64,000 nucleotides of DNA, taken from contig OZ231126.1 in NCBI GenBank assembly GCA_965153355.1, positions 45,508,001-45,572,000 of the forward strand. Direction: 5' to 3'. The position numbers and the translations under genes were made by a program. Each line of letters begins with the position of its first letter. Position 1 is the stretch's first letter. This DNA comes from Flaccisagitta enflata. Its lineage: Eukaryota. Positions 1 through 40,819 of the stretch are shown piece after piece. A model generated the notes under the pieces. The model saw only the letters and a program-made list of their open reading frames with translations. It was not told where the DNA came from and ran no database searches.

Positions 1-1029
1 GTGCCGGTGGTGGATCCGGCGATGCCTCCGTTAGAGCCGGCGGTGCCGGTGGTGCCGGTGGCGGATGACGGTGGTGGGGGCGCGGTGGAGGAAGAGGATG
101 GGGGGCAGGAGGCGGCGCGGCTACTGGAGGAGGAGAAGAAGCGGAAGAAGGCGGTGAGGCGGACGGCGCGGCGGAAGCGGTCGAAGTTGGCGGCGAAGGC
201 GAAGTTGGAGGAGGTGCTGCGTGCGGAGCAAGAGCGGGTGCGCCTGGAGGATGAGCAGCAGCGCCAGGCAGAGGAGCAGAGGCTGCGGGAGGAGGAGCAG
301 CGGCGCTTGGCGGAGCAGCAACGTCTGGACGGGGAGCGTCGTCGCCGGGAGGAGGAGGCTGCGAAGGAGGTGGCGCGATTGGAGCGCTCTCTACGAGAGG
401 CCCGGAATCAGCAGGTGCAGATTCGGCAGGGAGGCCATAGCCGGTCTTCTTCGCAGGGGTCTGGCCGGGTTGGTGGTCGGGTTGGCGGTGATGGTGGTGG
501 TGGCTCTGGTGGCGGCGGCGGGGGTCATTACGGTGGTGGCGGTGGTGGTCATCATGGTGGTGGCGGTGGTGGTCATCATGGTGGTGGCGGTGGTGGTCAT
601 CGTGGCGGTGGTGGTCATCGTGGTGGTGGAGGCGGCGGGTTTCAGCGTGGTGGTGGTTTCCATCGTGGAGGTGGAGGCGGTGGGTCCCAGCGTGGTGGTG
701 GCGGTGGTGGTCGGCCTTGGGTGGAGAGGGGGCATTGTGGCTTCCGCGTGCCTGACCAACCATCGTCGTCGTCGGCGCGGCCGCCAGCCTCTCCATCGTT
801 GAACTCGTCTTTCGCTTCTTCTTCTTCTTCTACCTTTTCCGAGCAAGAGATGCAGATTGCGTTGGCATTTGCTTCTGGTATGCGGCATGCGGGGGACCGG
901 TCGCGCAGTGGTGAGCGGGTTGAGGAGCCGTTGGCGACCTCTTCCCCTGCTGCGTGGAGGCCTTCCCGTTCTTCTGATCGGGGTGGTGATGGTCGGCGCG
1001 GGGGCCCGCCGCCGTCTTTTCGGCGTTAG
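1..1029 (+). CDS. 5'-open GC-rich ORF, unknown low-complexity protein (basic patch, E/R/Q coiled coil, Gly/His and RGG-rich tract, Ser/Pro tail)
   Basis: 342 stop-free codons running off the left edge, ending TAG at 1027-1029; GC-rich island in AT-rich DNA; non-repetitive coiled-coil segment; no recognisable family. Confidence 0.5.
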   Translation: MPVVDPAMPPLEPAVPVVPVADDGGGGAVEEEDGGQEAARLLEEEKKRKKAVRRTARRKRSKLAAKAKLEEVLRAEQERVRLEDEQQRQAEEQRLREEEQRRLAEQQRLDGERRRREEEAAKEVARLERSLREARNQQVQIRQGGHSRSSSQGSGRVGGRVGGDGGGGSGGGGGGHYGGGGGGHHGGGGGGHHGGGGGGHRGGGGHRGGGGGGFQRGGGFHRGGGGGGSQRGGGGGGRPWVERGHCGFRVPDQPSSSSARPPASPSLNSSFASSSSSTFSEQEMQIALAFASGMRHAGDRSRSGERVEEPLATSSPAAWRPSRSSDRGGDGRRGGPPPSFRR

Positions 1030-1829
1030 CGGGCTGTTCCCGCTGTCCGTCCGTCCATCCGTTTTTTCCGTCGATTACAGGTGGGAGTTGTTGTTTTTTC
1101 TTGAGGTGGGACAATGTACTGAGTTTGATTGGTTTGAAGTGGGCTTCAAACGGGCGGACTGTGGAATATCGCACTGAATTTTACTAGTTTTGTGATTATT
1201 TGTAGCTGCATATTTCTTTGATTCGCCCTGTTTTTTGCCCATTTTGTGGATTTATATTATTGCTGATTTTTCTTTCTTTAGATCAGTGATAATGTTATTC
1301 GCTCTTCATTCATGATCAATCTTGGGGTGCGTTTCCTTACCTGGTGAGTTGTGATTGGACTCGGTTGGTTGGTCAGTTGGTCGGCTTGGTTGGTTGGTCA
1401 GTTGGTCGGTTGGTGATGTTTAGTTATTTAGTTATTTAGTTATTGAGGATGTGAGTTATTGAGTTATTCAGATTGATAGGTTGATAGGTTAACCCTTTTC
1501 TTCTCTTTTCCCCTCTCCCTTTTCCTATCTATTTCAGCGTTTTTATACCCCTTTCAACCATAGAAGATATTTTGATGGCGACGACGAAAGACTCTATCCG
1601 CATGGAGGCGCAATGACTTTCTTTGGATTTCGTTGGAGTTGACGTTGTTGGCGTGGCGCGTGGCGTGGCTTCGAGAGGATTGGCGCGGTCGTGACGCAGC
1701 GACCGACGGACCGATTCATCGTCCTCGACGTCAGCGCATAGGTACTTTGACGGTTGGAGATAGTGTTCTACGCGGTTCTTTACACACGGTGGCTAAAAAT
1801 TAAAAGTCACATCAGATCATCAGTTAAGA

Positions 1830-1877
<48 letters not shown>

Positions 1878-3115
1878 ACAATTCGTAATTAATGGGAAAT
1901 ACATTTACAAACAGACCATTGTCCAATTCTTTATCATTCCACCTCAAAATTGTGTGCTGAATGCCGGAAAACCGTCGCGAAAAATTTTTAGCTGTAATAT
2001 TTTCGTCCATCGCCCTCTGCACCCAAGGTATTAAAAATGCAAATCAGTTTTGAGCATAAAGGAGTCACTTTGATGATTAATGTCTGTTGAGACCCTTACA
2101 ATCGATATCAATGTATACAATAATAAGCTTTTGAACAATTTGGTTGTTTGGTCTGACAATATCCAGTCCCTACTGGAGGGTATGCTGGAATGGGTCGTCA
2201 ACTGCATCTTCTTTACTCTTGAAGGTGCCTTGTCAGATTCTTTTTTGCGTGAAAGTGATATAGTTTCATGGATAGGTATCTGTTTTTATGTTGTATATGC
2301 CTGGATGAGCGCTTCAGATAATCAGTATGCTCCAGCACCTCATCCACCGCTTCTTACAGGGTAATAAAAGCGAACTAGTTAGTGTGCATCAGAACCTGCA
2401 GCGTTAGTAAGATTGCTGCAAACCTCACGATGATTTTGCATGTTAGATTGGAGAGTTTCTGGATCAATCCCACAGCGCAAAAGATTCTTCATGATTGCCC
2501 ACATGCCTAAGCATTAAGTCATCAGTCCCATTTTTGGGCAATAGCTGTAGGACACGGGTGAATTTCAAGACATCCGTCCACCTTAATACTATTGGGTCAA
2601 ATCAGCACTCTCAGGCCTGATTTTGGCCCTCATGCCCTCAAATCAGCTTTCCAGACCTCATATCTGCCCCCAAGACCGCAAATCAGCCCTCCAGGCCTCA
2701 AATCAGCTTTAATAACTCAAATCTCTCTTTTAGGCCCCAAGCCTGACGCCTGATCTCAAATCTGCTCTTCAGGCCAAACCAGTCGCACAAGGGCAATATG
2801 TGGTCAGCAATACCCCTTCCCCTGTTTTTCATGATTGTGAATTTGAGAGGGGGAAGCAGGGATCCATGAACTGAGGGCTGAGGGGGCAAATTTGAAGCCA
2901 AAAGAGGATGATTAGAGGCCTCAGAAGGTTTTTTTAAAGGAGTAAGAGGTAGAGTTGGGAGAACTTATGTCGTGACTGTCGGAATCGACAGTCACACCCC
3001 ATAGTGTCGGCTACTCGACCTCATGGTCAAAAACCGTCACGACCTACTGACTGACAGACAAAGGAAAAGGTGAAGAAAAAGAGAGAGACAGGCATTTTAC
3101 TTTTCTTATTCAATT

Positions 3116-4178: not shown

Positions 4179-4479
4179 GACATAATCATATCATGAGGCT
4201 TTTTAACAAGGCAAGATACACGACCAGTTAGCAGTCGGTTGCGTGTGGGCAGAGGCTAATTTGAGGCTGGACAGGAGCGGTACATGGTAGAGCAGGGGCT
4301 GTGATGTGGCAATGAGTATGTCTTACAGTCTGCTTCATAATGTCGAAACGAAACTGAAATGGCATGTCGGCAACGACATTAAACAGTGACGATGTCAAAA
4401 CTTATAAGAAGACATTTTAGGGAAGCGTAACTTTTGATAACCAATTGGTTTTTACCTAGTGTCGATGATCTCTAGTAAG

Positions 4480-5450
4480 AGGGTTGATTTGAAGCCTGAG
4501 TTGGCTCATTTGAGACCCAAGGCCTGATTTGAGGTCTGTTAGAGCTGATTTGAGGCCTGTGACGGCTGATTTGAGTCCTGTGAAGGCTGAGTTGAGGTAT
4601 AAGAGGTCAAATTTCAAGCCTGAGAGGCCTGATTTGAGGCCTGAGAGGCCTGATTGGAGGCCTGAGAGCCCTGATTTAAGGCCTGAGAGCCCTGATTTAA
4701 GGCCTGAGAGGTTTGATTTAAGGCCTGGGAGGCCTGATTTAAGGCCTGAGAGGCCCCTATGTGAGTGTATATGGGTGTAAGGTGGTTAGAGGGGCAGCGG
4801 CCCGAAAGGGGCCGATGACCAATGCTGTTTTTATTTGAGCCTCAAGGATGGAATTAGGGCCTAGAGGCTGGAATTGGGGCCTTGAGACTTGGATTTCAGC
4901 TTCAAGGCTGAAATTTGAGCTTCGAGGCAGGGATTTGAGCTTTGAGGTTGGGATTTGAGCTTCGGGGCAGGGATTTGAGCTTGGAAGCTGGTATTTGAGC
5001 TTCGAGGCTAGGATTTGAGCTTCAAGGCTGGGATTTGAGCCTAAGGGCTGGGATTTTAGCCTGGAGGCTGGGATTTTAGCCTGGAGACTGAGATTTGGGC
5101 CTCAAGGCTGGGATTTGAGCTTCGAAGTGGGGATTTGATCCTCAAAGCTAGGATTTGGGTCTCGAGACTAGGATTCGGGCGTTGAGGGGGGGGAGAAGGA
5201 GAAGAAGAAGAAGGAGAAATTTCCCCAATGTGTGAAAGCATAGGTCATCGGCCCCTTCGGTGCCGCTGCCCAAAAACAAACAAAGAAACAAAAGTCCCCC
5301 TGTGTTCTACAGGACTTCATCCCCTCCGGGGCTGCTGCCCAAAAATAAGTCCCCAAATCAGCCCTCCAGGCCTCAAATCAGCTTTCAAAACCTCAAATCT
5401 GCCCTTTAAACCTCAAGCCTGGCGCCTGATCTCAAATTTGCTCTTCTGGC
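4480..5450. mobile_element. Nested copies of repeat family 2 (GGGCAGCGGCCCC-ended, 20/21-bp internal minisatellites)
   Basis: 21-bp AGGCCTGAGAGGCCTGATTTG-type array, then an inner element about 4792-5270 bounded by inverted GGGCAGCGGCCC..GGGGCCGATGACC and carrying a 20-bp GAGCTTCAAGGCTGGGATTT array; related pieces at 2590-2900, 6750-7125, 7245-7530, 27290-27720. Confidence 0.7.
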
Positions 5451-6128: not shown

Positions 6129-8016
6129 GCCGCACCCTATTTTGAGTTGATGAACAAGAAAAAAAAATCATTTCAACATTTTTCTGTTGAAGTGAATTGA
6201 AAGATTTTCGAATTTTCTTTTATTCTAGACCAATCCCAGGTCTGTATCTCGAACGGTTTAGGAGCTAGAGCTTGTCAAAGTTATCTTCTAATTTGTAAAA
6301 AATGCTGAATTTTCCATGGGATTGCAAACTGATAATTTTTACTCATTTTCAAGCCATTTCTAAACGAATAAAGCTAGAATTCCCAGATTGGATCCAAATC
6401 AAAGATCTTTCCAAGAGCTTTTTAAAGGTCTAAGATTTTAATAAGTTTTTTTAAAATTGAGTATCACAATTTACCATTTAAAAGTGCGGCTTTTTTATTG
6501 AGTCCAGTTGTAGCACGCGACTAAAAAGTGCCATGTTAATTTAGACCAATCTGCCCATTTTTGACTGATTTTATAAAGAAATAACATCGATTTAAATTAA
6601 CAGAGGTCAGTTTATTAATTTTTTCAGAAACCTCACATGGGGTAAATCACATTTTTACCCAAAACTATGTGGAAGCTTAACTGCTAGAGCCAGAGCTATG
6701 AAATTTTGCATAAATAAAGGTTTTGCTGGTATCAGTTGCTTTTGATTTCAGGGTTGGCCTGGAATCTGCTCTCTCAAGCCTGAAATCTGCCCTCTCAGCC
6801 CTGTAATCTGCCCGGAATAAGCCTGAAATCTGCCCTCCCAAGCCAAAAGTCTGCCATCTTGGACATAAAATCTGCTCTCTCAGGCCTAAAATCCTCCATC
6901 TGAAAACTGAAATCTGCCCTCTAAGCCCTGAAATCAGCCCTTCCAGGCCTACTATCAGTCTTCTCAAGCTTCTAATCAGTCCTTAGGACAAACAGACGGA
7001 TGAAAGTCCCCCAGTGTTCTACAGGACTTTGTTCCCTTTGGACCACTGCCCTGCTTCCCCCTACTCAAATTCACAACCATGCAAAGCAGGGCAATGGGTA
7101 TTGCTGACCACAAATTGCCCTTGAGCATGCGAATACAACATGTTTTGTCCAACGGCCCGTTGATCAGTCCATCCATCAAACATTACTTGCATGACATTTA
7201 CAGACAGTCATTGCCTTATTGCTCCTACCTACTTGGTTAGCCTTTTTGAGCAGCGGCCAAGAGGCTCAAATTCCAACTAAGAGGCTCAAATTCCATCCTC
7301 AAGGCTCAACTACCAGCCTCAAGGCTCAAATACCACCCTCAAGGCTCAAATACTAGCCTCAAGGATCAAATACCAGCCTCGAGGCTCAAATACCAGCCTC
7401 AAGGCTCAAACACCAGCCTCAAGGCTTAAATACCAGCCTTACGGCTCAAAACTAACCTTTCAGGTTCAGCTCTCATCCTTGAGGCTTTAGACTCACTAAG
7501 CATAGGTCATCGGCCCCTTTGGGGCCGCTACCCCTCTCACTGCCACATATCCATCTATACTCATATAGGGGCCATTTATTACTACCCCTGCCCACCAGCA
7601 CACAATTTGGATAGCCATGTATCCGGCCTGATTTGTTGAGGAAAAAACAAACAGAAGGGACTCATATTTTGCCATTTTGACCATTTGGGCCCTTGAGGGG
7701 CCCCTAAAGGACCCCTCAGGGGCCCTCATCCTGAATATTTCCATGATCCATCTTTGATTTTTAAATATCTTCCAAACGAGACCAATACCAAGTTTTTTTT
7801 TCAACCCGTTTAGAAACAATAAAGAAAATAAAGTAAACAATTATTTTCCTATTTCCATCATCGAGAAGGCTGTAAAGATCAGCAGACTAACGAAAATATT
7901 ACAGCTAAAAATATTTCGCGACGGTTTTCCGGCATTTAGCACACAATTATGGGTTGAAATGACCAAGGATTGGACGATGGTCTGTTTGTATATGTACTTC
8001 CCATTAAATACGAATC

Positions 8017-10446: not shown

Positions 10447-11060
10447 ATCGCCGTTGCCGTCGCCGCCAAAAGCGGCTCTGAAAAGGACAACAAATGATGC
10501 ATGGTCTCTTCTTCCACATGGACACCAACAACGTCCGCTTTTCTATCCAAGTATACCATCTTTAGTCTATCTGGGCTCTCTCTCTCTGTAATTCTATCTT
10601 TCTGTTCATCTGCCCCTTTATAATTCTCTGATTTTGTCTCTCTCATATTCTGTCCTTCTGCCTTTCTGTCTTTTTGCCTTTCTGTCCTTCTCTCATTCCG
10701 TCCTTTTGTCTTGATATCATTCTGTCTTTCTGTTTTTCAGCCCGACGGACGGACTGGGCGTCTTGTAGATTCGCAAGTCCGCGATCAGAAAGTGCAGGTT
10801 GATATAGAAAATTGAAAAAGAGAATCATCAGTTTTGTTACTTCCTCTATTTTTGCCTAAAACTGAGGAACTATCATCGCTTTCGACGTCGAGTCAACCCC
10901 TATTGTCGAGGCAATTTCGTTTCTCTTTCTTTTCGTTTCTTCATCATTTCGCAATACATGAAATCTTTTATAAGTCACTCCTCGTGGCAAAGTTCTCGTC
11001 ATCTAGACTGTCAAATTCATTTCTCTATAAATATTTCGCCAAAATCGAAATTTGAAAGCA

Positions 11061-11071
11061 CCTTTTTTTTC
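11061..11071 (+). promoter_or_regulatory. Candidate 5'-TOP/TCT-like pyrimidine start tract
   Basis: CC-T8-C pyrimidine tract about 15 nt upstream of the RPLP1-like ATG; ribosomal protein mRNAs typically start in such tracts. Confidence 0.35.
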
Positions 11072-11085
11072 AAACCAACGAGAAA

Positions 11086-11143
11086 ATGGCGTCCAATGAC
11101 GAGTTAGCCTGCATCTACGCGGCTTTAATCCTTCATGATGACG
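11086..11143 (+). CDS. RPLP1: 60S acidic ribosomal protein P1-like, exon 1
   Basis: ATG at 11086; MASNDELACIYAALILHDD(G) matches the P1 N-terminus; phase-1 donor G|GTAAAT at 11144. Confidence 0.93.
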
Positions 11144-11356
11144 GTAAATGTTAATTTACTCAAACAAATTTCCAAGTTGTATTTGCATTTGTTCTGCACT
11201 CAAATTTGCAGCGGAGACGTAGTTTAATTCTGTCCGTCTGTCCGCCCGTCCGTAAATACTGCCCCAGCTAAGGCCAGTTCAACCGCACACGATCATTTTG
11301 AGGGTACTAGAAGGGTACATTTCTTTTTTTGAAAAGTTAGTTCATGTGTATTTCAG

Positions 11357-11515
11357 GTATTCCCATCACGGCTGACAAAATCACGACCATTCTAAAAGCT
11401 GCTAACGTAAGCGTGGAGCCGTACTGGCCCACCCTCTTCGCCAAAGCTCTCGAGGGCACGGACATTGGGGCACTTCTCGGATCCCTTGGGTCTGCAGCTT
11501 CGATTGTCAGCGCCG
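11357..11515 (+). CDS. RPLP1: 60S acidic ribosomal protein P1-like, exon 2
   Basis: TTTCAG acceptor; [34 protein letters not shown] is the P1 core; donor G|GTAAG at 11516; 159 nt, phase 1-1. Confidence 0.95.
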
Positions 11516-13631
11516 GTAAGAGCCTATAGAAAGTATGATAAGAACGGCAACAATTGTTGAAATATGCAGCATTCTGATAGAAGCTCCGACAAAAACATGA
11601 AAGCTCTTCGTTACTTGACTCTCGCTTTAAGAAATTTTGGAAAACAATCTATCCTAGTCCGCCATGGGCGGAGTTCAAAACAGGCAAAAGTTTGTAATCG
11701 ACGGGTCTGTAAGAGCGGGGTTGAACTTTGTTTCCAGTTGCGTGCACGCGACTCTACCAATAAAGGCGTCTCTCGCCGTAGGAAAAAAGTCGTAAGTGCG
11801 AGGTTTTGGAATTTTTTGTGATTGTGTTTTATCTGGTTGATTGGATTTTTATTCTCCACGCATCTTTTTGGTTTGTTCCACTCTCTCCATGTGTTTGTCT
11901 GTTTGTCCTTTGTCTACCCGTCTTTCTCTCTCTCTTTCTCTCTCTCATTCTCATTTTCTCTCTCCTCTTGTCTCTCTCTCTCTCTACCCTTCTCTCACAT
12001 GTGGACAGGTGGACAGAGGCATCCAACCCCCATCCACACCCCAACCCCAACACACAAGCATCTAGACCGCTTGTTTTTCCACTTTTTTACTCGGTTAGAC
12101 AGATGGACCAACAGACAAATGGATGGACTGACTGACAAAGCCTCTCATAGAGTACAGAGTTATAGTTAGAAATGAAGTGAGATTGTGTGACCGACAGAGA
12201 GACAGACAGACAGACAAGAGAGACGAGACGAGGCAAGCAGACAGAAAGACAGAGACAGACAGACAGACTGACCAGCTGACCGACAGAGAGACAGACAGAC
12301 AGAGCACGAGTGATTTGAAAGCTAGCGTCATTTTGACTTATTTCATGTTACATAGGGCCTGAAATAAGGAAGAATGAAAAATAATGATCTTTGGAGAAAT
12401 ATGGAAAAATGCGAAAAAATAAAAAAAGATTCAAAAAATCATAGCTCCAAAACTATCGATCGCACAGAATTCTGCTTGGCGTCATCTGAAAGAGGAGAAT
12501 TAGCTCTTTCTTAGTAGCATGGCTCATGGCATTTATTATATGAGGACATTCAAAGTTTTCCCGTTGTCTGCTGACTCATCAAGCATGCATATGTCCAAAC
12601 TGGGTAAAGAATATCCAATTCATATGTCCCTCAATTAGCTAAGTACAATATTCTGCAATTACGGAAGGAAACTGAAATCTGAAGAAAACATCTTAATTCC
12701 TGTAACTTCCTGGCGCCGGTCTTAAGTTCCCTACTGGGCCACAGCCATGCGGACAAAAATGCGCGGGACAGGGCCCTGTAGATTTAGGCTTAGTTTCTGA
12801 AGGAGATAAATGCCGGGCTGACTCCTCATATAAAATTGTATCATACAAAGCACACAATGAAGAAGTAATCGTAATAGTGACTCCCGGGAAGGAAAAATAC
12901 TCAAGCTATCATAAAAAGTCGATGACGACGTCTATCTCTTCCCCATAGTTTTACGATCTTTGTCTGCAATGGATTTTACCATAACAGTGCAAAGCAAACT
13001 TTTGACAGAGGGCTTTTGATGGAAAAAAACAAAAGACATAAGCATCGCTATTCTTAGCTATGAATTTCAAGCGTAGTCTCATTCGGCCCCAAAAAAATGA
13101 CCAACTTTCCCAAACGCCCCATGAGAAAAAGGGAAATCCAAAAAACTCTGCAGGACTCAAAAAGACCGAAGGGACTTCGTCTCTTCGACTTTTTTCCAAA
13201 CAACCCACTCTCTCCGTCTGTCGGTGTGTCAGTCGGTCTGTCGGAGACACTTAGCTTTTTTTCTTCGTTTTATGCCATTTTAAGTTTTTTAAGTCATTTT
13301 AAGTTATTTAAAGTTAATCTAAGTCAATTTACATTTAGTCTCTTAGTCTTTTAGTCTTATGGTCTTAACAACCGCACGCGACTGTAAGGTGTTGGCCTTG
13401 TTTTAAACAATGTATATATCTTCAGTCGCGAGCGACGCGACTCTACACTCCGCTTTGTCCGTCTGTCGGTTGTTTGGTCACGTTTTACTTTTTTTTATGT
13501 TTTTTCGGTCTTTTGTGTCACTGCTCCTGCCCAAATGCTCTAATGACCGCAATTCATCATTGTTTAATGTTTATTGATTCAGACTTGGAAATATTTTCTC
13601 TGATCTTCAATAAATTCTTGGCCAATTTCAG

Positions 13632-13798
13632 GTAATGTAGGAGGCGCTGTTAACGGCGCGGATGCTGGAACCGATTTAACATCTGCCAAACAAGAAGTCA
13701 AAGAAGTCCAGGAGGAAGAAACTGATGAAGATTCTGACAGTAGTTGTGGTGGCTTTGCTTTATTTGACGACGACGAGCTTTTTAAAAAGTGCTTTTGA
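13632..13798 (+). CDS. RPLP1: 60S acidic ribosomal protein P1-like, exon 3
   Basis: TTTCAG acceptor; phase-compatible; Gly/Ala hinge, acidic tract, then DSDSSCGGFALFDDDELFKKCF*; TGA at 13796-13798; spliced CDS 384 nt = 127 aa; AATAAA at 14178. Confidence 0.88.
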
Positions 13799-13876
13799 AA
13801 AAAAAAAATATCCGTCTGTCTGCCTGACCTTTTTTGGAAGTGACGACGCACGCGACATAGGCCTAATGACCTTGTT
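13776..13876 (+). mobile_element. 3' fragment of HINE family 1b overlapping the RPLP1-like stop codon
   Basis: Colinear similarity to 39641-39745 and 33120-33226, including GACGCACGCGAC..AGG.CTAATGACCTTGTT. Confidence 0.7.
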
Positions 13877-14518
13877 TTTTTACTGATAGTGGTCTGTGGC
13901 AATGGAAAATCACTTAGAATTGGTTTACAACCATCGCATCGGCAATTAACAATCGCATTTATTGCCTCGAGCTACTGTGTACTCCATAGAAATGCCATAC
14001 CAAAATTGTAAACCCTATGCACACGCATCCTACTTGCATATTCAGGATATGCCCATTGGGCACCCTGGTTATTCCAAACATAAAGGGTATTTTTATTGGA
14101 TGAAACTTTCATTCAGAACTTTTGATTTCGCCGCCTTTCCCTTGTCTAATTTTCATTCAAAACATTCTCTGTTATTAAATAAAAAGAAAGCGATTATCTT
14201 AAACATCTACAAGAGATGTTAGATAGAAGAAAGAAGTTGTCATCTTTTTGGGCAATTCATCCAAAATCCTTGTCACTCTTAACTTAATAGAAAGAAATAG
14301 GAAAAATACAAAACAAAAAAAATTTTAAACTTCGTGAAAAATGCAGGGTAACACCCTTTTTTAGCCTCTCCCAGCGGCACGAGTTTTTATTCATGAAATA
14401 ATCTTCCATTTAGAATTTAAAACCTCATGAACATTCAACTTCTCTCAAACGGAAGGCGTGGCCAGTGCTCTGGCGCAAGAGACGTAGACTTGAAGGTCGA
14501 TGTGTGGACGAAGATGCG

Positions 14519-21143: not shown

Positions 21144-23116
21144 TGCCAAACCGTGATAGCACCTTCTCTTCCCAAGTCACTGTGGTTGCATTCAAAGCGA
21201 TGACGTTGTCCGGACCCTGACAACCATTTCTTTCCTTACAGCAAAATGACCTTTTAAATCGAGGGTGCCATGGCCTCAGGGTGAGATATCAAGACTGACC
21301 GCCAACTCGTTCCATTGTTGGCGTAATCGTCACCTTTTGGTGTTTCAAACGATCATTTTGTAATAAATGATAATTTTTTCGATTCTCCCACGCATTTTAT
21401 AATTGAAATATCGTCGTCATGTGCTCAAAAGACGATGATTTAGGAAGTATAGTGGGAACCCGATTTAACGACCTTGAAGGGACTAGGGATTTTTGGTCGT
21501 TGAATCCGAATGTTGTTAAATCGAATTTATAATTTTCTTTCATTGATCTATACTGTTTCATAGGCAATAAACGCTAGCATCAGTGTCTAATTGATAATCA
21601 TAGTTAGTATTCAAGTATTTGTGCAAATGGTCAACAGACATTACGACAGAGGCTCAGAGCTAAAGACAAACAGAATGCCTAACAGATAGACAGACAGACA
21701 GAAAGAAAAAACAAACAAAAACAGGCAGATAAATGTAGCTTTGTAACGACTCACAATGTTATGTAAAAGATAGATATAAGATAGCATAAATAATTTGTGG
21801 GATAAAGATATTGTTAAAAAATAGCCGATTTTGATTCAAATTATTTTTAATAAAAAGTTTATCTACAAATGATATTTCATTCTTTTTGCTCATAGTTAGA
21901 CTTAGACTCGAAAATTTTCCCAGGTCAGTCAGTAGCTCAATCTTTTGCATGGACCTGCTCAGCGCTTTCAATAATGCACATTTCAAATTTCAAGGTTCTG
22001 GCTCAAATACTTAAGAAGTTATGAGCATTTGTTTGAACCATATCAAACTAAAAAGATTCCAGGAGAATCTTTAAACTTTCTTTTGAAATATGGCCGACAC
22101 AAACATTTTTAAAGTTTTTTTGAAAAAAGTGAAATTACAAGATTTTGGATCTAGGCAAATCAAGCAATTTCCTATCAATGAACCCCACTTTTTTTTCAAA
22201 AAAAAAATCCTCATTAAGGGCTTTTTGGGGCCCCTAGGGGCCCCTAAGAAGTTTAAAATGTTGGTCAATGAGATCAACAGACTTATGTGGTATGTGGTAT
22301 CTTTCAAGAACAAATTCAAGCAGATTAGTTCAAGCTAGAGCTCATGCCGTTACTACCTTCGAACCGGCCGCATATGAAGGAGAAATATGAAAATTCACAA
22401 GGACTTAGATTTAGGTTCTGAGGTCAGTATCTATCATGGTTTTTTTCATTTTTTAGCTGCTATTTTGTTCACTTTTTTGTTGAAAGTTTTAGTTTATGTT
22501 AAAATATTTTTCTTCAATTTTATTATATATGAAAGCTTCAATGAAAATTCAATGTAAAGAAACACATAAATAAATCAAAATGTCAATGTCACTGAATCAG
22601 GGAAAAAAAATTTCAAGGGACCCTAAAATAGCGACTTTAAACCAGGTTTGGCTGTTATATCCGGTGTCGTTAAATCAGGTAAAATTAACATTACAAAAGC
22701 CTGCAAAAATTTGGGACCAAAGAAACCTAGATATTAAATCTGAAATGTCGTTACTAGAGATGCAGAGGCGGTAGATTTTTGGACCGCTTCCGCTTCCGCT
22801 TCCAAAAGGCATATTTGAGAATTGACAGCTTCCGCTTCCGCTTCCGCTTTCACCATTTCAAAAAGCATAGCTTCCGCTTCTGCTTCAGCTTCCACCATTT
22901 TAGAAGGCATCGCTTCCGCTTCCGCTTCCGCTTCCGCTTCCGCTTCCGCTTCCGCTTCCGCTTCCGCTTCCACATTGTTGAGTATTTCACTATAATATCT
23001 ATCTAAGTTATATAAGATGTTTTCTTATGTAAAAAAAGAGGTGAGATAAAAGGAGGAAATAAAAGAAATAATAAAAAATATGTTGATGACAAGGCCTCAA
23101 GGCCAGGAGAAGGAGA

Positions 23117-23768
23117 ACAGGTCGCCCAAGGGCAATATGTGGTCAGCGATACCCGTTGCCCTGCTTTTCATGATTTTGAATTGAAGTAAGAGGAAGCAAG
23201 GCAGCGGCCCCGAAGGGGACGAAGTCCTGTAGAACACAGGGGACTTTTGTTTGTTCGTTCGTTCATTCGTTCGTTCGTTTGTCCGTCCGTTCGTCCCCCC
23301 AGGCCCTCTCAGACCTGAAATCTGACCTCTCAGGCCTAAAATCTGCCCTCTCAGGCCTGAAATCTGCCCTCTCAGGCCTGAAATCTGCCCTCTCAGGCCT
23401 TGAATCTGAGAGGGAAGATTTCAGGCCTGAGAGGGCAGATTTTGGGCCTGAAAGGGCAGATTTTAGGCCTGAGAGGACAGGTTTTAGGCCTGAGAGGGCA
23501 GGTTTCAGGCCTGAAAGGTCAAATTTCAGGCCTGAGAGGGCAGATTCAAGGCCTGAGAGGGCAGATTCAAGGCCTGAGAGGGCAGATTTCAGGCCTGATA
23601 AGGCAGATTTTTGGTCTGAGAGGGCAGATTCTAGGCCTGAGAGGGCCTGGGGGGGACGAACGGATAGACGAACGAACGAACGAACGAACGAATGAACGAA
23701 CGAACGAACGAACGAAAGTCCCCTGTGTTCTACAGAACTTCGTCCCCTTTGGGGCCGCTGCCCAAAAA
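23117..23768 (-). mobile_element. Intact family 2 element (asymmetric-TIR, Helentron/HINE-like, internally palindromic)
   Basis: 23201-23400 and 23405-23761 are inverted copies (terminal motif, TTCG microsatellite, 21-bp repeats); about 85-bp unique tail ending on the minus strand in a GCCC-TT-GGGC hairpin and CCTGTT. Confidence 0.7.
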
Positions 23769-23799
23769 GGGTTAAAGAGAGAGTGAGTGAATAAATGAA

Positions 23800-24328
<529 letters not shown>

Positions 24329-25390
24329 AAAAGACAGACAGACAGACAGAAAGAGATAGACAGACAGACAGAAAAAAATCAGATAAAGTGAAAGAAAGAT
24401 AAAAGGATAGACCAACAGAGACAAACAGATGATGGAAAAATATAGTTAAAAGCACTAAAAAAAAATTAAAACACAAAGAGAAGAAAGAAACAATAAAAAA
24501 TAGATAGATTATACTAAAATAAGTTCCACTAAAACTGACATGATTATTGTCAAAATATTGACAGGACCTGAAGTGGAAGCGGAAGCGGAAGCGGAAGCGG
24601 AAGCGGAAGCGGAAGCGGAAGCGGAAGCGCTTGATTATGTCCTTTCGCTTCCATTAGGCTTCCATTAGGCAAAAAAGTTTTCGCTTCCGCTTCCGCTTCC
24701 ACTTGATTTCAAAATTGCGCTTCCGCTTCCGCTTCCGCTTCCATGCTCAAACTACCGCTTCCACCCGCTTCCGCTTCCGCTTCCGCTTCCGCTTCTGCAT
24801 CCCTAGTCGTTACATCAGGTGACGAAAAGGCGGTTGTCCACTTTGGAACTATTGTTTATGCCTTTGACTAATGGTCATGTCAATGACCATTGCCCATTGG
24901 CATTATACCATCATGCTAAAAAGTATTAAAGCCAACTAAGAATAAGGTTTTTTAAAGTATACTTTTAGCGTGACTTCTGACTAGTTCAATGAAAATCTAA
25001 CTAGCTACTAAAATGTCTTCTTATGAAGCAAACAAAAAGTTTTTAATGCTTAACCTTGTCATAAATCAAGTACTTAGTTCGCATTTTGTCAAAGAAACAT
25101 TTTGTAAAGAACCGTGAACCATGAACCGTTTTCTGAATTCCTGAATGTTAATAAAACTAGGCCGGATACACGGCTACCAAAGTCGCGTGCGGGTGGGCAG
25201 GGACAGTGAAAACAAAGGCTAACACAAGCATGTGGGCAGGAGCAGTTATGGTAAAATCGCCCATGAGTGTCAACAAAGCTAACAGCGACCGATGGACCGA
25301 CCGACCGACCGGCCGATGGACATAACGGGTTCGAAAGATTTTTTTTTTATCCATAAGTTCTTATTCCTTTGATTATTCCTGTGTTATATG

Positions 25391-29505: not shown

Positions 29506-30143
29506 TTATTTCTCTTTCTCTTTCTTTCTCTTTTCCTCTCTTTCCTTTTTTTCGTCTTTTCATTCCCCTCTCTTACTAGTACGTACGTAGTTCGTAGCAC
29601 AAATGAGTTCCCCTGAGTTTCGTTCCTTCTTTTCGCCTCGGCTTTGAAAAAAGGTCGATTTACCTTTTTTTTCTCTTTTCTCACTTTTTGTGCTTCTCTT
29701 CCTTGCCGCTTTGCGCCGCCACTCGTTCTTGTTGCCGACTATTTCTACAAAAAAAGGGGTACTAAAGACTCTTTGGGGGTTCACGTTAACAGTTCCAAAG
29801 GGATTTTTATGAAAATCGTAAATTCTTTAAAAGGAAAACGAACCTTTTTTTTGTAGCGTATATGTATCAAACATTATTCTCTCTATCCAATCTCCTCCTT
29901 AGAACGTCCTCGCGTTCAAAAGAAAAAAAAAACTATTCTAGACAACATGTGATTAGATGTTTTCTCTCATTTCTTTTTTTGAGATCGGTCAGTAAAAGTT
30001 GGACTAAAAGAAAATTGAAATCGAATTTTGCATCGTGATTTACTAATTGTTATAATGAAACCGCTATTGTACCATACAAGTACCAAAACAATTTCCTCCA
30101 TTACAATGTTAACACAATGATGAGCACCTACCATCAGAAATAC

Positions 30144-30235
<92 letters not shown>

Positions 30236-30530
30236 GTTGACACGGGGGACCTCATCACAATCGATCACCTTATCAAAGCTTCGTCATCAACGTTCTTCAT
30301 TAGGGCCAATGGTTTTTGCATCAAATCAATTGAACACCCCAGCCTGCAGCTTTTTTAAACTGACTATGTCTATACTATTGAAAACTACTCGCTATATGAC
30401 TTTTCTCCGTGTTTTAGAGGTTCCAGTTTTGATATTTTGATCAGAACTGGATGGTGGTTGTGGTAAAAATGTCAAATCTAGGTCATTTTGGCCGCAAAAT
30501 TGGGCCACTTTGCCTTAGAAATCGAACCTA

Positions 30531-32957: not shown

Positions 32958-33226
32958 TTTTTAGTCGCGTGCTACGCGACTCTATAAGCAACTATGTCGG
33001 TCCGTCGGTCGGTTGGTCGGTCGGTCGGTCCATCACAAATTCGATTTTTTTTTCATTTTTTTCATTTTGTAACACTAGAGAAGGTGCTGGGAGGTGAATA
33101 TCACTTATTCTGAGGTCATTTTCAAAAATTTGTGTGCCTGTCTGTCTGTCTGTTTGTTTGTATGTCTGTCTGACCAAATCTTTCTGAAAATACTGACGCA
33201 CGCGACTTAAGTCTAATGACCTGTTT
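32958..33226 (+). mobile_element. HINE family 1b copy
   Basis: Same 5' hairpin as family 1, GTCG/GTCT repeats, distinct 3' end; second copy 39477-39745. Confidence 0.7.
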
Positions 33227-33487
33227 TTTTTTTTGTTTTTTTTTTTAAAAAGCAAGGCCGAATACATGGCAATCCAGTCACCTATCGACAAACCGACATA
33301 CCGACCGACACAGCAAGGTGTAGTCGCATTTCTAACAAAAATGATCTAAATCAATTCAAAATTTTTCGCGCCATTTTTATGATGCGTCCTCTGTTGGTCC
33401 GTCTATTGGTCCGTCCATTGTCTATCAGTCCGTCGGTCTGTCGGGCCACCAGTCAGTCCGTCCGTGGCATTGCAAGATTGAGCAAGA

Positions 33488-39154: not shown

Positions 39155-40819
39155 TGTGGAAGATATTACGGAAAATCATTCAGAACTGCCAGACTCGGGC
39201 TCAGAACTGTCAGGTAACGCATTCGTTCGACAATCCACACGTCGCACCTTATTGGCCTACTTGGCCTTGTTTCTCCTTGTTTGAGGTAGGCTCGGTATGA
39301 AAAAAAAACATGTGAAACACGTCTTAATTGCTAAATGCCATGAAATTCGAGATAGAATCGCATGTCATCCCTGATGTCCTTATCCTGAGATAATTCTAAT
39401 GTCAAACTCACCCACGTAGAACCAAAGACGCAAACGCCTAGGCAAGAGTGCAAAGGAGGCCGTTCGCGATCGAAAGTTTTTAGTCGCGTGCTACGCGACT
39501 CTATAAGTCACTTTTCGGTCCGTCCGTCGGTCCGTCAGTCCGTCCGTCCGTCGGTCGGTCTGTCACAAAGTCATTTTAAAGGTTTTCTATGGCATTTTAA
39601 ACGTCTCTAAGTAGTGGAGAAGAAGCTTGGAGTAGTAAAAAGCTGTTTTAAATGTCTTTTTCAAAAAGAATTGTTTGTCTGTCTGTCGGCCTGACTTTTT
39701 TTGTAAATGCCGACGCACGCGACTTAGGTCTAATGACCTTGTTTTTTAATATTCGAGTACCTTGCCGCCGATGGTGACGTTGTTTGAATGCGATCGACGA
39801 TGTGATGCAGTAGCATGGATTTTGTTGAGGGCACCCCACGGTAGCCACCCCACGGTAGCCACTACAGATTGTATGGCTCCTTTTGTTAGGGGGGGGGGGC
39901 TCAGAAGGTTGGATGGGAAGGTAAAATTCTTGAGTAGGGGTTATCAATTACATGATCAAGCAGTTACGGCAAAAGTTAAATCAAATTAGTGAGCTGACAA
40001 TCAATAATTAGGCGACGGTACATGAGAAGTGATGCGATCTGGCAAATGGAAGATCAAACAAGCCCAACCGGGTAACAATGTGTCTGGACTGTCTCTGCAT
40101 GTACATTATATGGAGGGACAGATATATGAGACGACAGAGTAATAAAGCTTGAAGGAGGCTCACATAATGTGAAGAGGCGCAATTACGGTTATAGAGAAAG
40201 AAAACATGTGTAAGATCAGTAAACCAGGCCAAGTAGTCCAAGCACGAGCGCTGTGTGGATCATCGAACAAATGCGTTATCCGACCGACAGACCGACCAAC
40301 CAACCAACGGACAAAGACTCCGACATGCATTGGCGCCCGTAAAGAGCGTTTGTAGTTGTGAAGTGAGGCCGGCGAAAATGTAGAGTTCAAATAACAGCAA
40401 GAAAAATAAAAAGGCCAAAGAGCAAGGCCAGTTACACGGCAAGACAGTTGCGGATGGGTGGGCAGGGGCAATATATGAACCGCTCACAATTCAGAATTAT
40501 GAGGGACAAACCAACCTATCGACAAACACAGCAAGGAGTAGTTGCGTGACCGCGACTAAAAACTAGAATGGCGAGCTTACAATTATGGTCGTAAGACGAG
40601 GATAGATGAGAAATGATCCAAGGCACTTAAACCTAGAATCCGCTCTTGTCCTTAAAACTTTTTTTTAAAGGCGGGCCATACGTCGGGAAAATGTTACGTT
40701 TCAAATTTAAGATTATATAGAGATTATTTCCTCCGCTCGTTTGTTTTGAGCTCGTTGAGCTCGTTTCACTGTGAGCTCAAATGACTTAAAACGCACAAGT
40801 GTAATAACATTAGATTCTA

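What the first reader, a model, noticed from the sequence alone, without database searches (positions are those of the whole stretch)
11086..13798. RPLP1 paralog that has lost the invariant P-stalk C-terminus
Seen: an intact three-exon ORF ending EEETDEDSDSSCGGFALFDDDELFKKCF. Known: P0/P1/P2 proteins end in a near-universal (E)SDDDMGFGLFD-COOH that recruits translational GTPases and GCN2 and is bound by ribosome-inactivating toxins. Here the motif is substituted, the terminus is extended by 9 residues and the hinge is Ala-poor, while the N-terminal dimerisation domain is conserved. Inference: a specialised (for example germline) or dominant-negative stalk paralog rather than the housekeeping copy.
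Basis: partly seen in the sequence, partly recalled or inferred. Interest (0 to 1): 0.7.

Follow-up and report, generated by a model that had tools for sequence, protein, structure and literature searches.

The report
Stalk protein P1 copy, altered tail
An arrow-worm-like genome carries an intact three-exon copy of ribosomal stalk protein P1 whose factor-binding end is mutated and buried under nine extra residues that run into a dispersed repeat, and the only matching RNA found carries a different, more normal-looking end, so it looks more like a damaged copy than a proven special ribosome part.

Summary
Window 11086-13798 (+) holds a three-exon GT..AG gene for a 127-residue P1-type stalk protein ending ...SSCGGFALFDDDELFKKCF. 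The N-terminal domain is a good P1 domain. The GFxLF core survives, but it ends 10 residues from the C-terminus, against 1 residue in 51 of 51 full-length relatives.

The nearest relatives are 36 chaetognath-like P1 proteins, one of them named Spadella cephaloptera. All 36 have an Ala-rich hinge and a canonical ...DEDMGFSLFD-type end. The window's tail was found in no protein or contig collection searched.

The stop codon and the last 3-7 codons lie inside a dispersed repeat, 13776-13881.

Marine metatranscriptome contigs match the 5'UTR, exon 1 and exon 2 at 98-99% and use the predicted splice sites. Their exon 3 is only about 83% alike and then continues ...EKKAETDEESD, a more canonical acidic tail. 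No RNA contig covers the window's tail.

Best reading (0.5): a remodelled, probably decaying or silent copy or allele of an expressed P1 gene. A specialised or dominant-negative stalk subunit remains possible (0.25). The genome-wide search for other P1 loci could not be run.

The parts
10995..11085 (+). 5' untranslated region, minimum extent
   Evidence: The X1 metatranscriptome contig (record 1) aligns from 10995 through exon 1, with 2 other letters and 1 gap in 148 nt.
11086..11143 (+). Exon 1 coding part (MASNDELACIYAALILHDD plus the first base of the Gly codon)
   Evidence: It is identical to the first 19-20 residues of the chaetognath-like P1 proteins.
11144..11356 (+). Intron 1, GT..AG, 213 nt
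   Evidence: The joint 11142/11356 'skips 213, GT..AG (cut +1)' is seen in contigs of X1 and X3.
11357..11515 (+). Exon 2, the core of the P1 N-terminal dimerisation domain
   Evidence: Pfam PF00428 at 42.4 bits, E 1.1e-10. All 7 PDB sequence hits are P1 chains. It is 84-87% identical to chaetognath-like P1.
11516..13631 (+). Intron 2, GT..AG, 2116 nt, filled with dispersed repeats and microsatellites
   Evidence: The RNA contig joint 11518->13644 with 9 replaced letters corresponds to the same donor and acceptor. No alternative canonical last exon lies inside it.
13632..13798 (+). Exon 3: Ala-poor hinge, acidic run, altered tail and stop codon
   Evidence: Pfam PF00428 profile positions 51-88 match residues 4-44 of the exon peptide at 19.9 bits, below the cut-off.
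13751..13768 (+). Retained core motif G-F-A-L-F-D, now internal
   Evidence: It is the only GFxLF[DE] match in six frames of the 64 kb window. It ends 10 residues before the C-terminus, against 1 residue in 51 of 51 relatives.
13769..13798 (+). Nine-residue extension DDELFKKCF plus the TGA stop
13776..13881 (.). Copy of a short dispersed repeat that overlaps the last 7 codons and the stop
   Evidence: blastn finds the core 13811-13880 at 88.6% to 39678-39747 and at 80% to 33164-33230. Over 13776-13881 against 39641-39750, 88 of 105 aligned positions are identical. Over 13760-13775 only 6 of 14 are identical. The left part matches 23 of 30, and 7 of 2000 shuffles reach that score. The stretch GTSNTTTTSAAAAA (13788-13801) is shared by all three copies.

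Best explanation
This is a real, intron-containing copy of the ribosomal stalk protein P1 gene in a chaetognath-like genome, and its 3' end has been remodelled. The hinge and tail exon has diverged. The acidic residues and the Met in front of the GFxLFD motif have been replaced. The original stop is gone, and the frame now runs 9 codons further into a dispersed repeat that supplies the stop codon. The first + strand AWTAAA signal lies about 376 nt downstream. The form of this gene seen in RNA has the same 5'UTR, exon 1 and exon 2 but a different exon 3 with a more canonical acidic tail. I therefore read the window's copy as a damaged, probably poorly expressed or decaying duplicate or allele of an expressed P1 gene, not an established specialised subunit. 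If it is translated (inferred, not shown), the intact N-terminal domain should still pair with P2 and dock on P0. The tail would then present the Leu-Phe pair internally, without the free C-terminal carboxylate next to it. That would be expected to weaken recruitment of elongation factors, giving a hypomorphic or mildly dominant-negative stalk arm.
For: 1. The stop codon and at least the last 3 codons, probably 7, lie in a repeat with two other copies in the window. Identity is 88 of 105 over 13776-13881, dropping to 6 of 14 just upstream.
2. No + strand AWTAAA occurs between the stop (13798) and 14174.
3. RNA contigs from two metatranscriptome runs (X1, X3) match 10995-11142 and 11356-11518 with 4 differences in 311 nt and use the predicted splice sites. 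They match the first 82 nt of exon 3 with 14 differences (Fisher p = 1.7e-7). After 13713 they continue AAAAAAGGCGGAGACCGACGAAGAATCTGA, which reads (E)KKAETDEESD in frame and resembles the EEKKAESDEESD that precedes the EDMGFSLFD end of relatives such as P0007 and P0022.
4. Depth is 0 over 13750-13977 in X1, X2 and X3.
5. The tail was not found among proteins of 96-2000 aa (21 candidates, none scored) or 29-95 aa (no candidate). It gave 0 hits at E<=0.001 among 1.84 billion representatives and nothing in JGI metagenome contigs (560 pattern matches, none confirmed; 0 matches).
6. All 36 chaetognath-like full-length relatives keep the MGF[SG]LFD end.
7. In the archaeal aP1-aEF1alpha structure, the carboxyl group of the last residue forms a salt bridge with Lys324, and K324L abolishes binding. 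Leu and Phe are strictly conserved, and L110S or F111S in silkworm P1/P2 cut eEF1alpha-dependent GTPase activity to one third (passages of PMC4267659).
Against: 1. The ORF is intact across three exons with canonical splice sites.
2. Read against the RNA form, the two visible length differences in exon 3 are multiples of three. This is my alignment of the 30-letter loose end.
3. In exons 1-2 the two listed differences from the RNA contigs (11097 T>C, 11439 C>T) are both synonymous, so the N-domain is either under constraint or has been homogenised.
4. G-F-x-L-F-D is retained.
5. The N-domain branch is not long: 0.056, equal to the stem of the canonical group.
6. The absence of RNA is weak evidence. 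Only three contig sets from one study were laid, and contigs drop rare variants. The one raw-read poly-A run (X5) laid 0 of about 12.2 million reads anywhere on the stretch and is no test.
7. The left boundary of the repeat rests on three copies only, and for the first 12 nt on one copy.
8. The very end of the RNA form was not visible, so its canonical terminus is inferred.
Confidence: 0.5

Rival explanations
1. It is a functional, specialised P1 paralogue, for example germline- or stage-restricted. Its internalised, less acidic tail changes which factors the stalk recruits, or it acts as a natural dominant-negative arm.
For: The ORF is intact with canonical splice sites. The P1 N-domain is conserved, and the two listed exon 1-2 differences from the expressed form are synonymous. 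The GFxLFD core is retained. The gene falls outside the group of all 21 distinct canonical chaetognath-like N-domains, with support 90/78 for that group without it and 99/100 with it. It differs from all 36 at 7 positions, as expected of an older separate lineage. Chaetognaths are reported to have variant ribosomal protein transcripts, debated as paralogues or haplotypes (passages of PMC2566580), and many lineage-specific duplicates (figure legend of PMC12460157).
Against: No RNA contig covers the tail. No relative with this tail exists in any collection searched. The stop codon lies in a dispersed repeat and no nearby poly-A signal is present. The expressed relative with the same exons 1-2 has a different tail.
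Confidence: 0.25
2. The window and the RNA contigs are the same locus. The odd exon 3 is then a divergent haplotype of a highly polymorphic species or a close sister species, or a local assembly or conversion artefact, and not a separate gene.
For: Identity is 98-99% over at least 520 nt of 5'UTR, exon 1 and exon 2. An X2 contig runs from exon 2 31 nt into intron 2 (11371-11546, 4 other letters). Only one P1 locus exists in the 64 kb window. The chaetognath literature discusses ribosomal protein variants as possible haplotypes of cryptic species (passages of PMC2566580).
Against: The jump from about 1% to about 17% divergence at the exon 2/exon 3 boundary (Fisher p = 1.7e-7) is not what simple allelic variation gives. 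The RNA form's tail motif is absent from the whole window at up to 3 mismatches. The differences are many substitutions plus in-frame length changes, not the pattern of homopolymer errors.
Confidence: 0.12
3. It is the only, housekeeping P1 of this species, and the extended tail is tolerated.
For: It is the only P1 locus in the window. The N-domain is well conserved.
Against: The GFxLF motif ends one residue from the C-terminus in 51 of 51 full-length relatives. A near-identical expressed form with a more canonical tail exists. The tail is not covered by RNA contigs although exons 1-2 are, at depth 5-10. The gene sits in repeat-rich DNA where 137 tested ORFs gave one weak Pfam match.
Confidence: 0.05

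Closest known systems
Canonical chaetognath P1. The named example is Spadella cephaloptera large ribosomal subunit protein P1, UniRef A8E668 (P0031). Thirty-five unnamed look-alikes come from JGI, Logan and ENA data.
   Same: Exon 1 peptide is identical. Exon 2 is 84-87% identical, and the N-domain is up to 90% identical over 73 columns. Intron positions are the same, as seen from genomic read-through ORFs such as P0006, P0009 and P0010. The number of acidic residues in the hinge plus tail is the same: 15, equal to the median.
   Different: Seven N-domain positions differ from all 36. The hinge has 5 Ala and 0 Pro against medians of 9 and 2. The end is SSCGGFALFDDDELFKKCF instead of DEDMGFSLFD, so the motif is internal.
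The RNA form in marine metatranscriptome contigs (runs X1 and X3, coded ids)
   Same: The 5'UTR, exon 1 and exon 2 are 98-99% identical. The splice junctions are the same. The hinge is the same Ala-poor type (...VNGADAGTD.T.AKQEVKEVQE...).
   Different: The first 82 nt of exon 3 differ at 14 positions. After 13713 it reads ...EKKAETDEESD, closer to the canonical acidic run. It does not align to the window's tail, and that stretch is not present anywhere in the window.
Multiple P1/P2 paralogues of fungi and plants (yeast P1alpha/P1beta, plant P3). This is recalled knowledge and was not tested here.
   Same: More than one stalk protein gene of one type exists in a genome, with diverged hinges.
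   Different: As far as I recall, those paralogues keep the conserved motif at the extreme C-terminus. This copy does not.
Mrt4, the P0 paralogue without the acidic tail that acts as an assembly placeholder. This is recalled; the review PMC5425277 appeared only in the search listing.
   Same: It is a stalk-family protein that keeps its docking domain but lacks a working factor-binding tail, and so is a conceptual model for a non-recruiting stalk component.
   Different: Mrt4 is a P0-type rRNA-binding protein, ancient and conserved. This is a P1-type protein found in one genome only, with its tail altered rather than absent.

Membership tests
Eukaryotic ribosomal stalk protein P1 (Pfam PF00428 Ribosomal_60s, P1 subtype) | N-terminal helical dimerisation domain matching the family profile above its curated cut-off | tested here: met
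   The exon 2 peptide scores 42.4 bits against a cut-off of 28.1, E 1.1e-10, over profile positions 2-47 of 88.
Eukaryotic ribosomal stalk protein P1 (Pfam PF00428 Ribosomal_60s, P1 subtype) | P1 type rather than P2 type | tested here: met
   All 7 PDB sequence matches are P1 chains, best 2lbf_A at E 1.4e-11. Nearly every hit that a source names by function is called P1 or LP1. The gene groups with chaetognath-like P1 at 99/100 support.
Eukaryotic ribosomal stalk protein P1 (Pfam PF00428 Ribosomal_60s, P1 subtype) | Flexible acidic hinge rich in Ala, Gly and Pro | tested here: inconclusive
   There are 15 Asp+Glu, equal to the median of 36 relatives. There are only 5 Ala (median 9, range 4-15) and 0 Pro (median 2).
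Eukaryotic ribosomal stalk protein P1 (Pfam PF00428 Ribosomal_60s, P1 subtype) | Conserved (D/E)(D/E)MGF(G/S)LFD motif at the extreme C-terminus | tested here: not met
   GFALF ends 10 residues before the C-terminus, against 1 residue in 51 of 51 full-length relatives. Met is replaced, and SSC stands where DED or DDD does. The Pfam match of exon 3 is below the cut-off (19.9 against 28.1 bits).
Eukaryotic ribosomal stalk protein P1 (Pfam PF00428 Ribosomal_60s, P1 subtype) | Expressed and incorporated into ribosomes as a P1-P2 dimer on P0 | not testable with these tools
   No proteomics was available. RNA contigs cover exons 1-2 but not the tail. No P2 or P0 of this organism was at hand.
Ribosomal protein pseudogene (processed or decayed) | Loss of introns (retrocopy) | tested here: not met
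   Two GT..AG introns lie at the positions used in relatives.
Ribosomal protein pseudogene (processed or decayed) | Frame-disrupting lesions or premature stops | tested here: not met
   The spliced frame is open for 127 codons with one terminal stop. The lesion is a lost original stop and a repeat-derived end, not a frameshift.
Ribosomal protein pseudogene (processed or decayed) | No transcription of the copy | tested here: inconclusive
   Depth is 0 over 13750-13977 in three metatranscriptome contig sets. The raw-read run X5 laid nothing at all and is no test.

The most novel reading that the evidence does not exclude
Chaetognaths, already known for two classes of rRNA genes and debated double sets of ribosomal protein transcripts, carry a second P1 lineage with an Ala-poor hinge. 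In this genome one member of it is an expressed stalk subunit whose factor-binding Leu-Phe motif is capped by a repeat-derived extension. That would make it a naturally occurring 'blunted' stalk arm that lowers or retunes recruitment of elongation factors and GCN2 on a subset of ribosomes.
Probability: 0.2. Interest if true: 0.7.

Novelty: new variant of a known kind. Interest (0 to 1): 0.3.

Why it matters
The C-terminal motif of P1, P2 and P0 is among the most conserved peptide ends in eukaryotes. A naturally expressed P1 with that end capped would be a ready-made probe of how many active tails a stalk needs, and of ribosome specialisation. The evidence here leans the other way. The tail is unique to this sequence, runs into a repeat, and is not seen in RNA, so the case is mainly an example of how a repeat can remodel the end of a ribosomal protein gene copy. 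A side result may be of more lasting use. An expressed P1 form with an Ala-poor hinge stands outside all canonical chaetognath-like P1 sequences, and this bears on the old question of duplicated translational machinery in arrow worms.

Tried and rejected
- Own-genome search for a canonical RPLP1: not possible, because no genome is held.
- A second P1 locus or an alternative canonical last exon in the window: none. tblastn with four relatives and both exon peptides, plus a six-frame motif scan, found only this locus. The RNA form's tail motif is absent at up to 3 mismatches.
- Relatives of the exon 3 peptide: none among longer proteins, proteins of near length, 1.84 billion representatives (the library is clustered at 50% identity, so a paralogue may hide behind a canonical representative), or JGI metagenome contigs by peptide patterns. 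A degenerate pattern for the paralogue-specific [13 protein letters not shown] also found nothing.
- The poly-A raw-read run X5 ('organism A'): 0 reads laid of about 12.2 million read. This is no test of expression.
- Polarising the 7 N-domain differences with outgroups: rejected as evidence, because the outgroups were retrieved by shared words with the query and are biased towards its residues.
- Neighbouring genes as context: Pfam on 137 of 162 filtered ORFs (341 ORFs of 60 aa or more before an entropy filter; 25 overlapping ones left out by hand) gave one weak Atrophin-1 match only. No Rfam family and no tRNA were found.
- Literature: Barthelemy et al. 2007 (PMC2020476) has no occurrence of RPLP1, LP1, acidic, RPP1, stalk or LP2. 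The listings showed no report of a metazoan P1 with an internalised tail; only listings were seen, so this is not proof of absence.
- No structure or complex prediction was run.
Full report
**Observation.** An ATG at 11086 opens exon 1 (11086-11143, MASNDELACIYAALILHDD). A GT..AG intron of 213 nt follows. Exon 2 is 11357-11515. A GT..AG intron of 2116 nt follows. Exon 3 is 13632-13798 and ends ...EEETDEDSDSSCGGFALFDDDELFKKCF with TGA at 13796-13798. A script that joined these coordinates gave 384 nt, 127 residues and a single terminal stop.

**Family.** Pfam Ribosomal_60s matches the exon 2 peptide at 42.4 bits against a cut-off of 28.1. It matches the exon 3 peptide at 19.9 bits, below the cut-off, and that alignment ends at residue 44 of 54. 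All 7 PDB sequences matched by exon 2 are P1 chains. This is a P1-type stalk protein gene.

**Relatives.**
- A word-seeded search with exon 2 among proteins of 92-2000 aa returned 89 hits from 185 candidates.
- The top group is 84-87% identical. It shares the exon 1 peptide exactly and includes one named protein, P1 of the chaetognath Spadella cephaloptera.
- I kept 51 of the 89 as full-length, meaning they start M..ELAC and end in an MGF[GSA]LF[DGE]-type end. I dropped 38 that are partial, frameshifted or genomic read-throughs.
- Of the 51, 36 begin MASNDELACIYAALILHDDGIS. I call these 'chaetognath-like' on that resemblance alone, since 35 of them are unnamed.
- All 36 have an Ala-rich hinge and end ...MGF[SG]LFD.
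- In all 51 the GFxLF motif ends one residue from the C-terminus. In the window it ends 10 residues from it.
- The core G-F-A-L-F-D is therefore kept. The Met and the acidic residues before it are replaced (SSC in place of DED), and nine residues follow.
- The hinge plus tail has 5 Ala and 0 Pro, against medians of 9 and 2.

**Position among P1 sequences.**
- The window's N-domain differs from all 36 chaetognath-like proteins at 7 positions.
- I built a maximum-likelihood tree of 37 rows over 73 columns. The rows are 36 distinct N-domains plus one identical pair, drawn from the 52 input sequences, which included many duplicates. In it the window groups with the 21 distinct chaetognath-like N-domains at 99/100 support.
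- Those 21 form a group without the window at 90/78, which is suggestive but not strong. The window's branch (0.056) is no longer than their common stem.
- This is a separate P1 line, not a fast-decaying offshoot of one canonical gene.
- I do not use the outgroup residues to polarise the changes, because the outgroups were retrieved by shared words with the query.

**The tail and the repeat.**
- Just downstream of the stop lies a short dispersed repeat. blastn aligns 13811-13880 to 39678-39747 at 88.6% and to 33164-33230 at 80%.
- The similarity continues to the left, into the coding sequence. All three copies share GTSNTTTTSAAAAA, which here is 13788-13801 and contains the codons for Cys, Phe and the stop.
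- The copy at 39.6 kb matches from 13776, with 23 of 30 identical in the left part. Seven of 2000 shuffles reach that score, and 15 of 3000 random window 60-mers do.
- Over 13776-13881, 88 of 105 aligned positions are identical. Over 13760-13775, 6 of 14 are.
- The stop codon and the last 3 codons, probably the last 7 (ELFKKCF), are therefore repeat sequence.
- The next + strand AWTAAA after the stop is at 14174.
- The window holds no other P1 exon. Six-frame scanning found only one GFxLF[DE] motif, and tblastn with canonical P1 proteins found only this locus.

**RNA evidence.**
- One search for runs listed four marine metatranscriptome runs of one study holding 7-16% of the sampled words, and one poly-A raw-read run added by study.
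- I laid X5, X1, X2 and X3 on 10900-14300.
- X5 laid 0 reads of about 12.2 million read, so it is no test.
- A 376-nt contig of X1 and a 499-nt contig of X3 align to 10995-11142 or 11084-11142 and to 11356-11518, with 1-2 other letters per piece.
- Both contigs skip intron 1 exactly (GT..AG) and join exon 2 to the predicted acceptor of exon 3.
- From there they differ. The first 9 nt after the shared GTA are replaced. The stretch 13644-13713 has 9 other letters in 70. After 13713 the X3 contig continues for 198 nt unlike the window.
- Only 30 letters of that divergent stretch were printed. In frame they read (E)KKAETDEESD, close to the EEKKAESDEESD that precedes EDMGFSLFD in canonical relatives.
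- That 26-nt stretch is nowhere in the window at up to 3 mismatches.
- Depth is 0 over 13750-13977 in all three contig sets.
- An X2 contig runs from exon 2 31 nt into intron 2.
- The change from 4 differences in 311 nt to 14 in 82 nt is significant (Fisher p = 1.7e-7).

**What this means.**
- An mRNA exists with the window's 5'UTR, exon 1 and exon 2 and the same Ala-poor hinge type, but with a different and more canonical tail region. The window's tail itself is unseen in RNA.
- The mosaic similarity fits one of two pictures. The first is two copies whose 5' halves are kept alike by recent duplication or gene conversion. The second is a strongly divergent haplotype or sister-species allele. 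I cannot tell which without the genome.
- The window's exon 3 is the derived one. It has a shorter acidic run, SSC in place of DED, a lost Met, a lost stop and a repeat-derived end.
- Against simple decay stand the open frame, the in-frame length differences, the kept G-F-x-L-F-D, and the fact that the two listed exon 1-2 differences are synonymous.

**Mechanism (inferred).**
- The N-domain should still pair with P2 and bind P0.
- In the archaeal aP1-aEF1alpha complex, the Leu and Phe of the tail and the carboxyl group of the last residue contact the factor. The salt bridge is to Lys324, and K324L abolishes binding. L110S or F111S in silkworm P1/P2 cut eEF1alpha-dependent GTPase activity to one third (passages of PMC4267659).
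- A tail with Leu-Phe kept but followed by nine residues, and with fewer acidic residues before it, is therefore expected to recruit factors poorly.
- If it is expressed, the product would be a weak or mildly dominant-negative stalk arm. If not, it is a silent damaged copy.

**Context.**
- The surrounding 64 kb is rich in microsatellites and dispersed repeats.
- Pfam on 137 ORFs gave a single sub-threshold Atrophin-1 match. No Rfam family and no tRNA were found.
- From the literature I saw passages only. Variant ribosomal protein transcripts in Spadella have been read as paralogues or as haplotypes of cryptic species (PMC2566580). The Paraspadella genome paper reports many lineage-specific duplicates and widespread trans-splicing (PMC12460157). 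Barthelemy et al. 2007 has no occurrence of RPLP1, LP1, acidic, RPP1, stalk or LP2.
- The listings showed no report of an animal P1 with an internalised tail.

**Verdict.**
- Best reading (0.5): a remodelled, probably silent or decaying copy or allele of an expressed P1 gene.
- A functional specialised subunit remains open (0.25).
- The same locus with a divergent haplotype, or an artefact (0.12).
- The sole housekeeping gene (0.05).
- Interest is modest unless expression of the tail is shown.

Noticed in passing
window 58466, 42217, 61017, 38742, 39491, 32972, 11744 and others: An abundant dispersed repeat family. Copies begin with a near-palindrome (AGTCGCGTGCACGCGACT) and continue with CTACACCCCGCTTTG and a (GTCN)n microsatellite. 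A further conserved part ends ...CGCACGCGACTGGGGTAGCCGTGTATCCGGCCTTGTTTTT. A core-motif scan gave 30 hits. Related pieces inside intron 2 reach summed contig depths in the thousands in marine metatranscriptome contigs.
   Followed up: partly
window 10995-11518 and 13644-13713, as matched by contigs of runs X1 and X3: An expressed P1 form with the window's exons 1-2 and an Ala-poor hinge, but with an ...EKKAETDEESD tail. It is absent from the 5.8-billion-cluster protein collection at more than 87% identity to exon 2. It may mark a second P1 lineage in arrow worms.
   Followed up: partly
window 30039-30437 (+): The only other ORF with a Pfam match: Atrophin-1 family, 26 bits, below the cut-off of 29.9, matching residues 33-63. 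It may be an exon of a neighbouring gene or a low-complexity match.
   Followed up: no
window 4456-5101, 6677-6982, 23097-23786: Tandem repeats with a period of about 24 nt. They read as SGLKSALSGLKS... or RADFRPERADFRPE... in different frames and recur at several places. Very long (GA)n and (CT)n tracts lie at, for example, 23567-24653.
   Followed up: no
window 1-2000: A GC-rich block (55.5% GC, GC skew +0.29) that stands out from the roughly 40% GC of the rest. It holds long low-complexity open frames on both strands.
   Followed up: no
window 14092-14300: RNA contig depth of 7-56 in X1 and X2 resumes here, after a gap of zero depth from 13750. This is next to the first AWTAAA signals at 14174 and 14178. 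It is probably a separate repeat or transcript, not the 3' end of the P1 gene.
   Followed up: no
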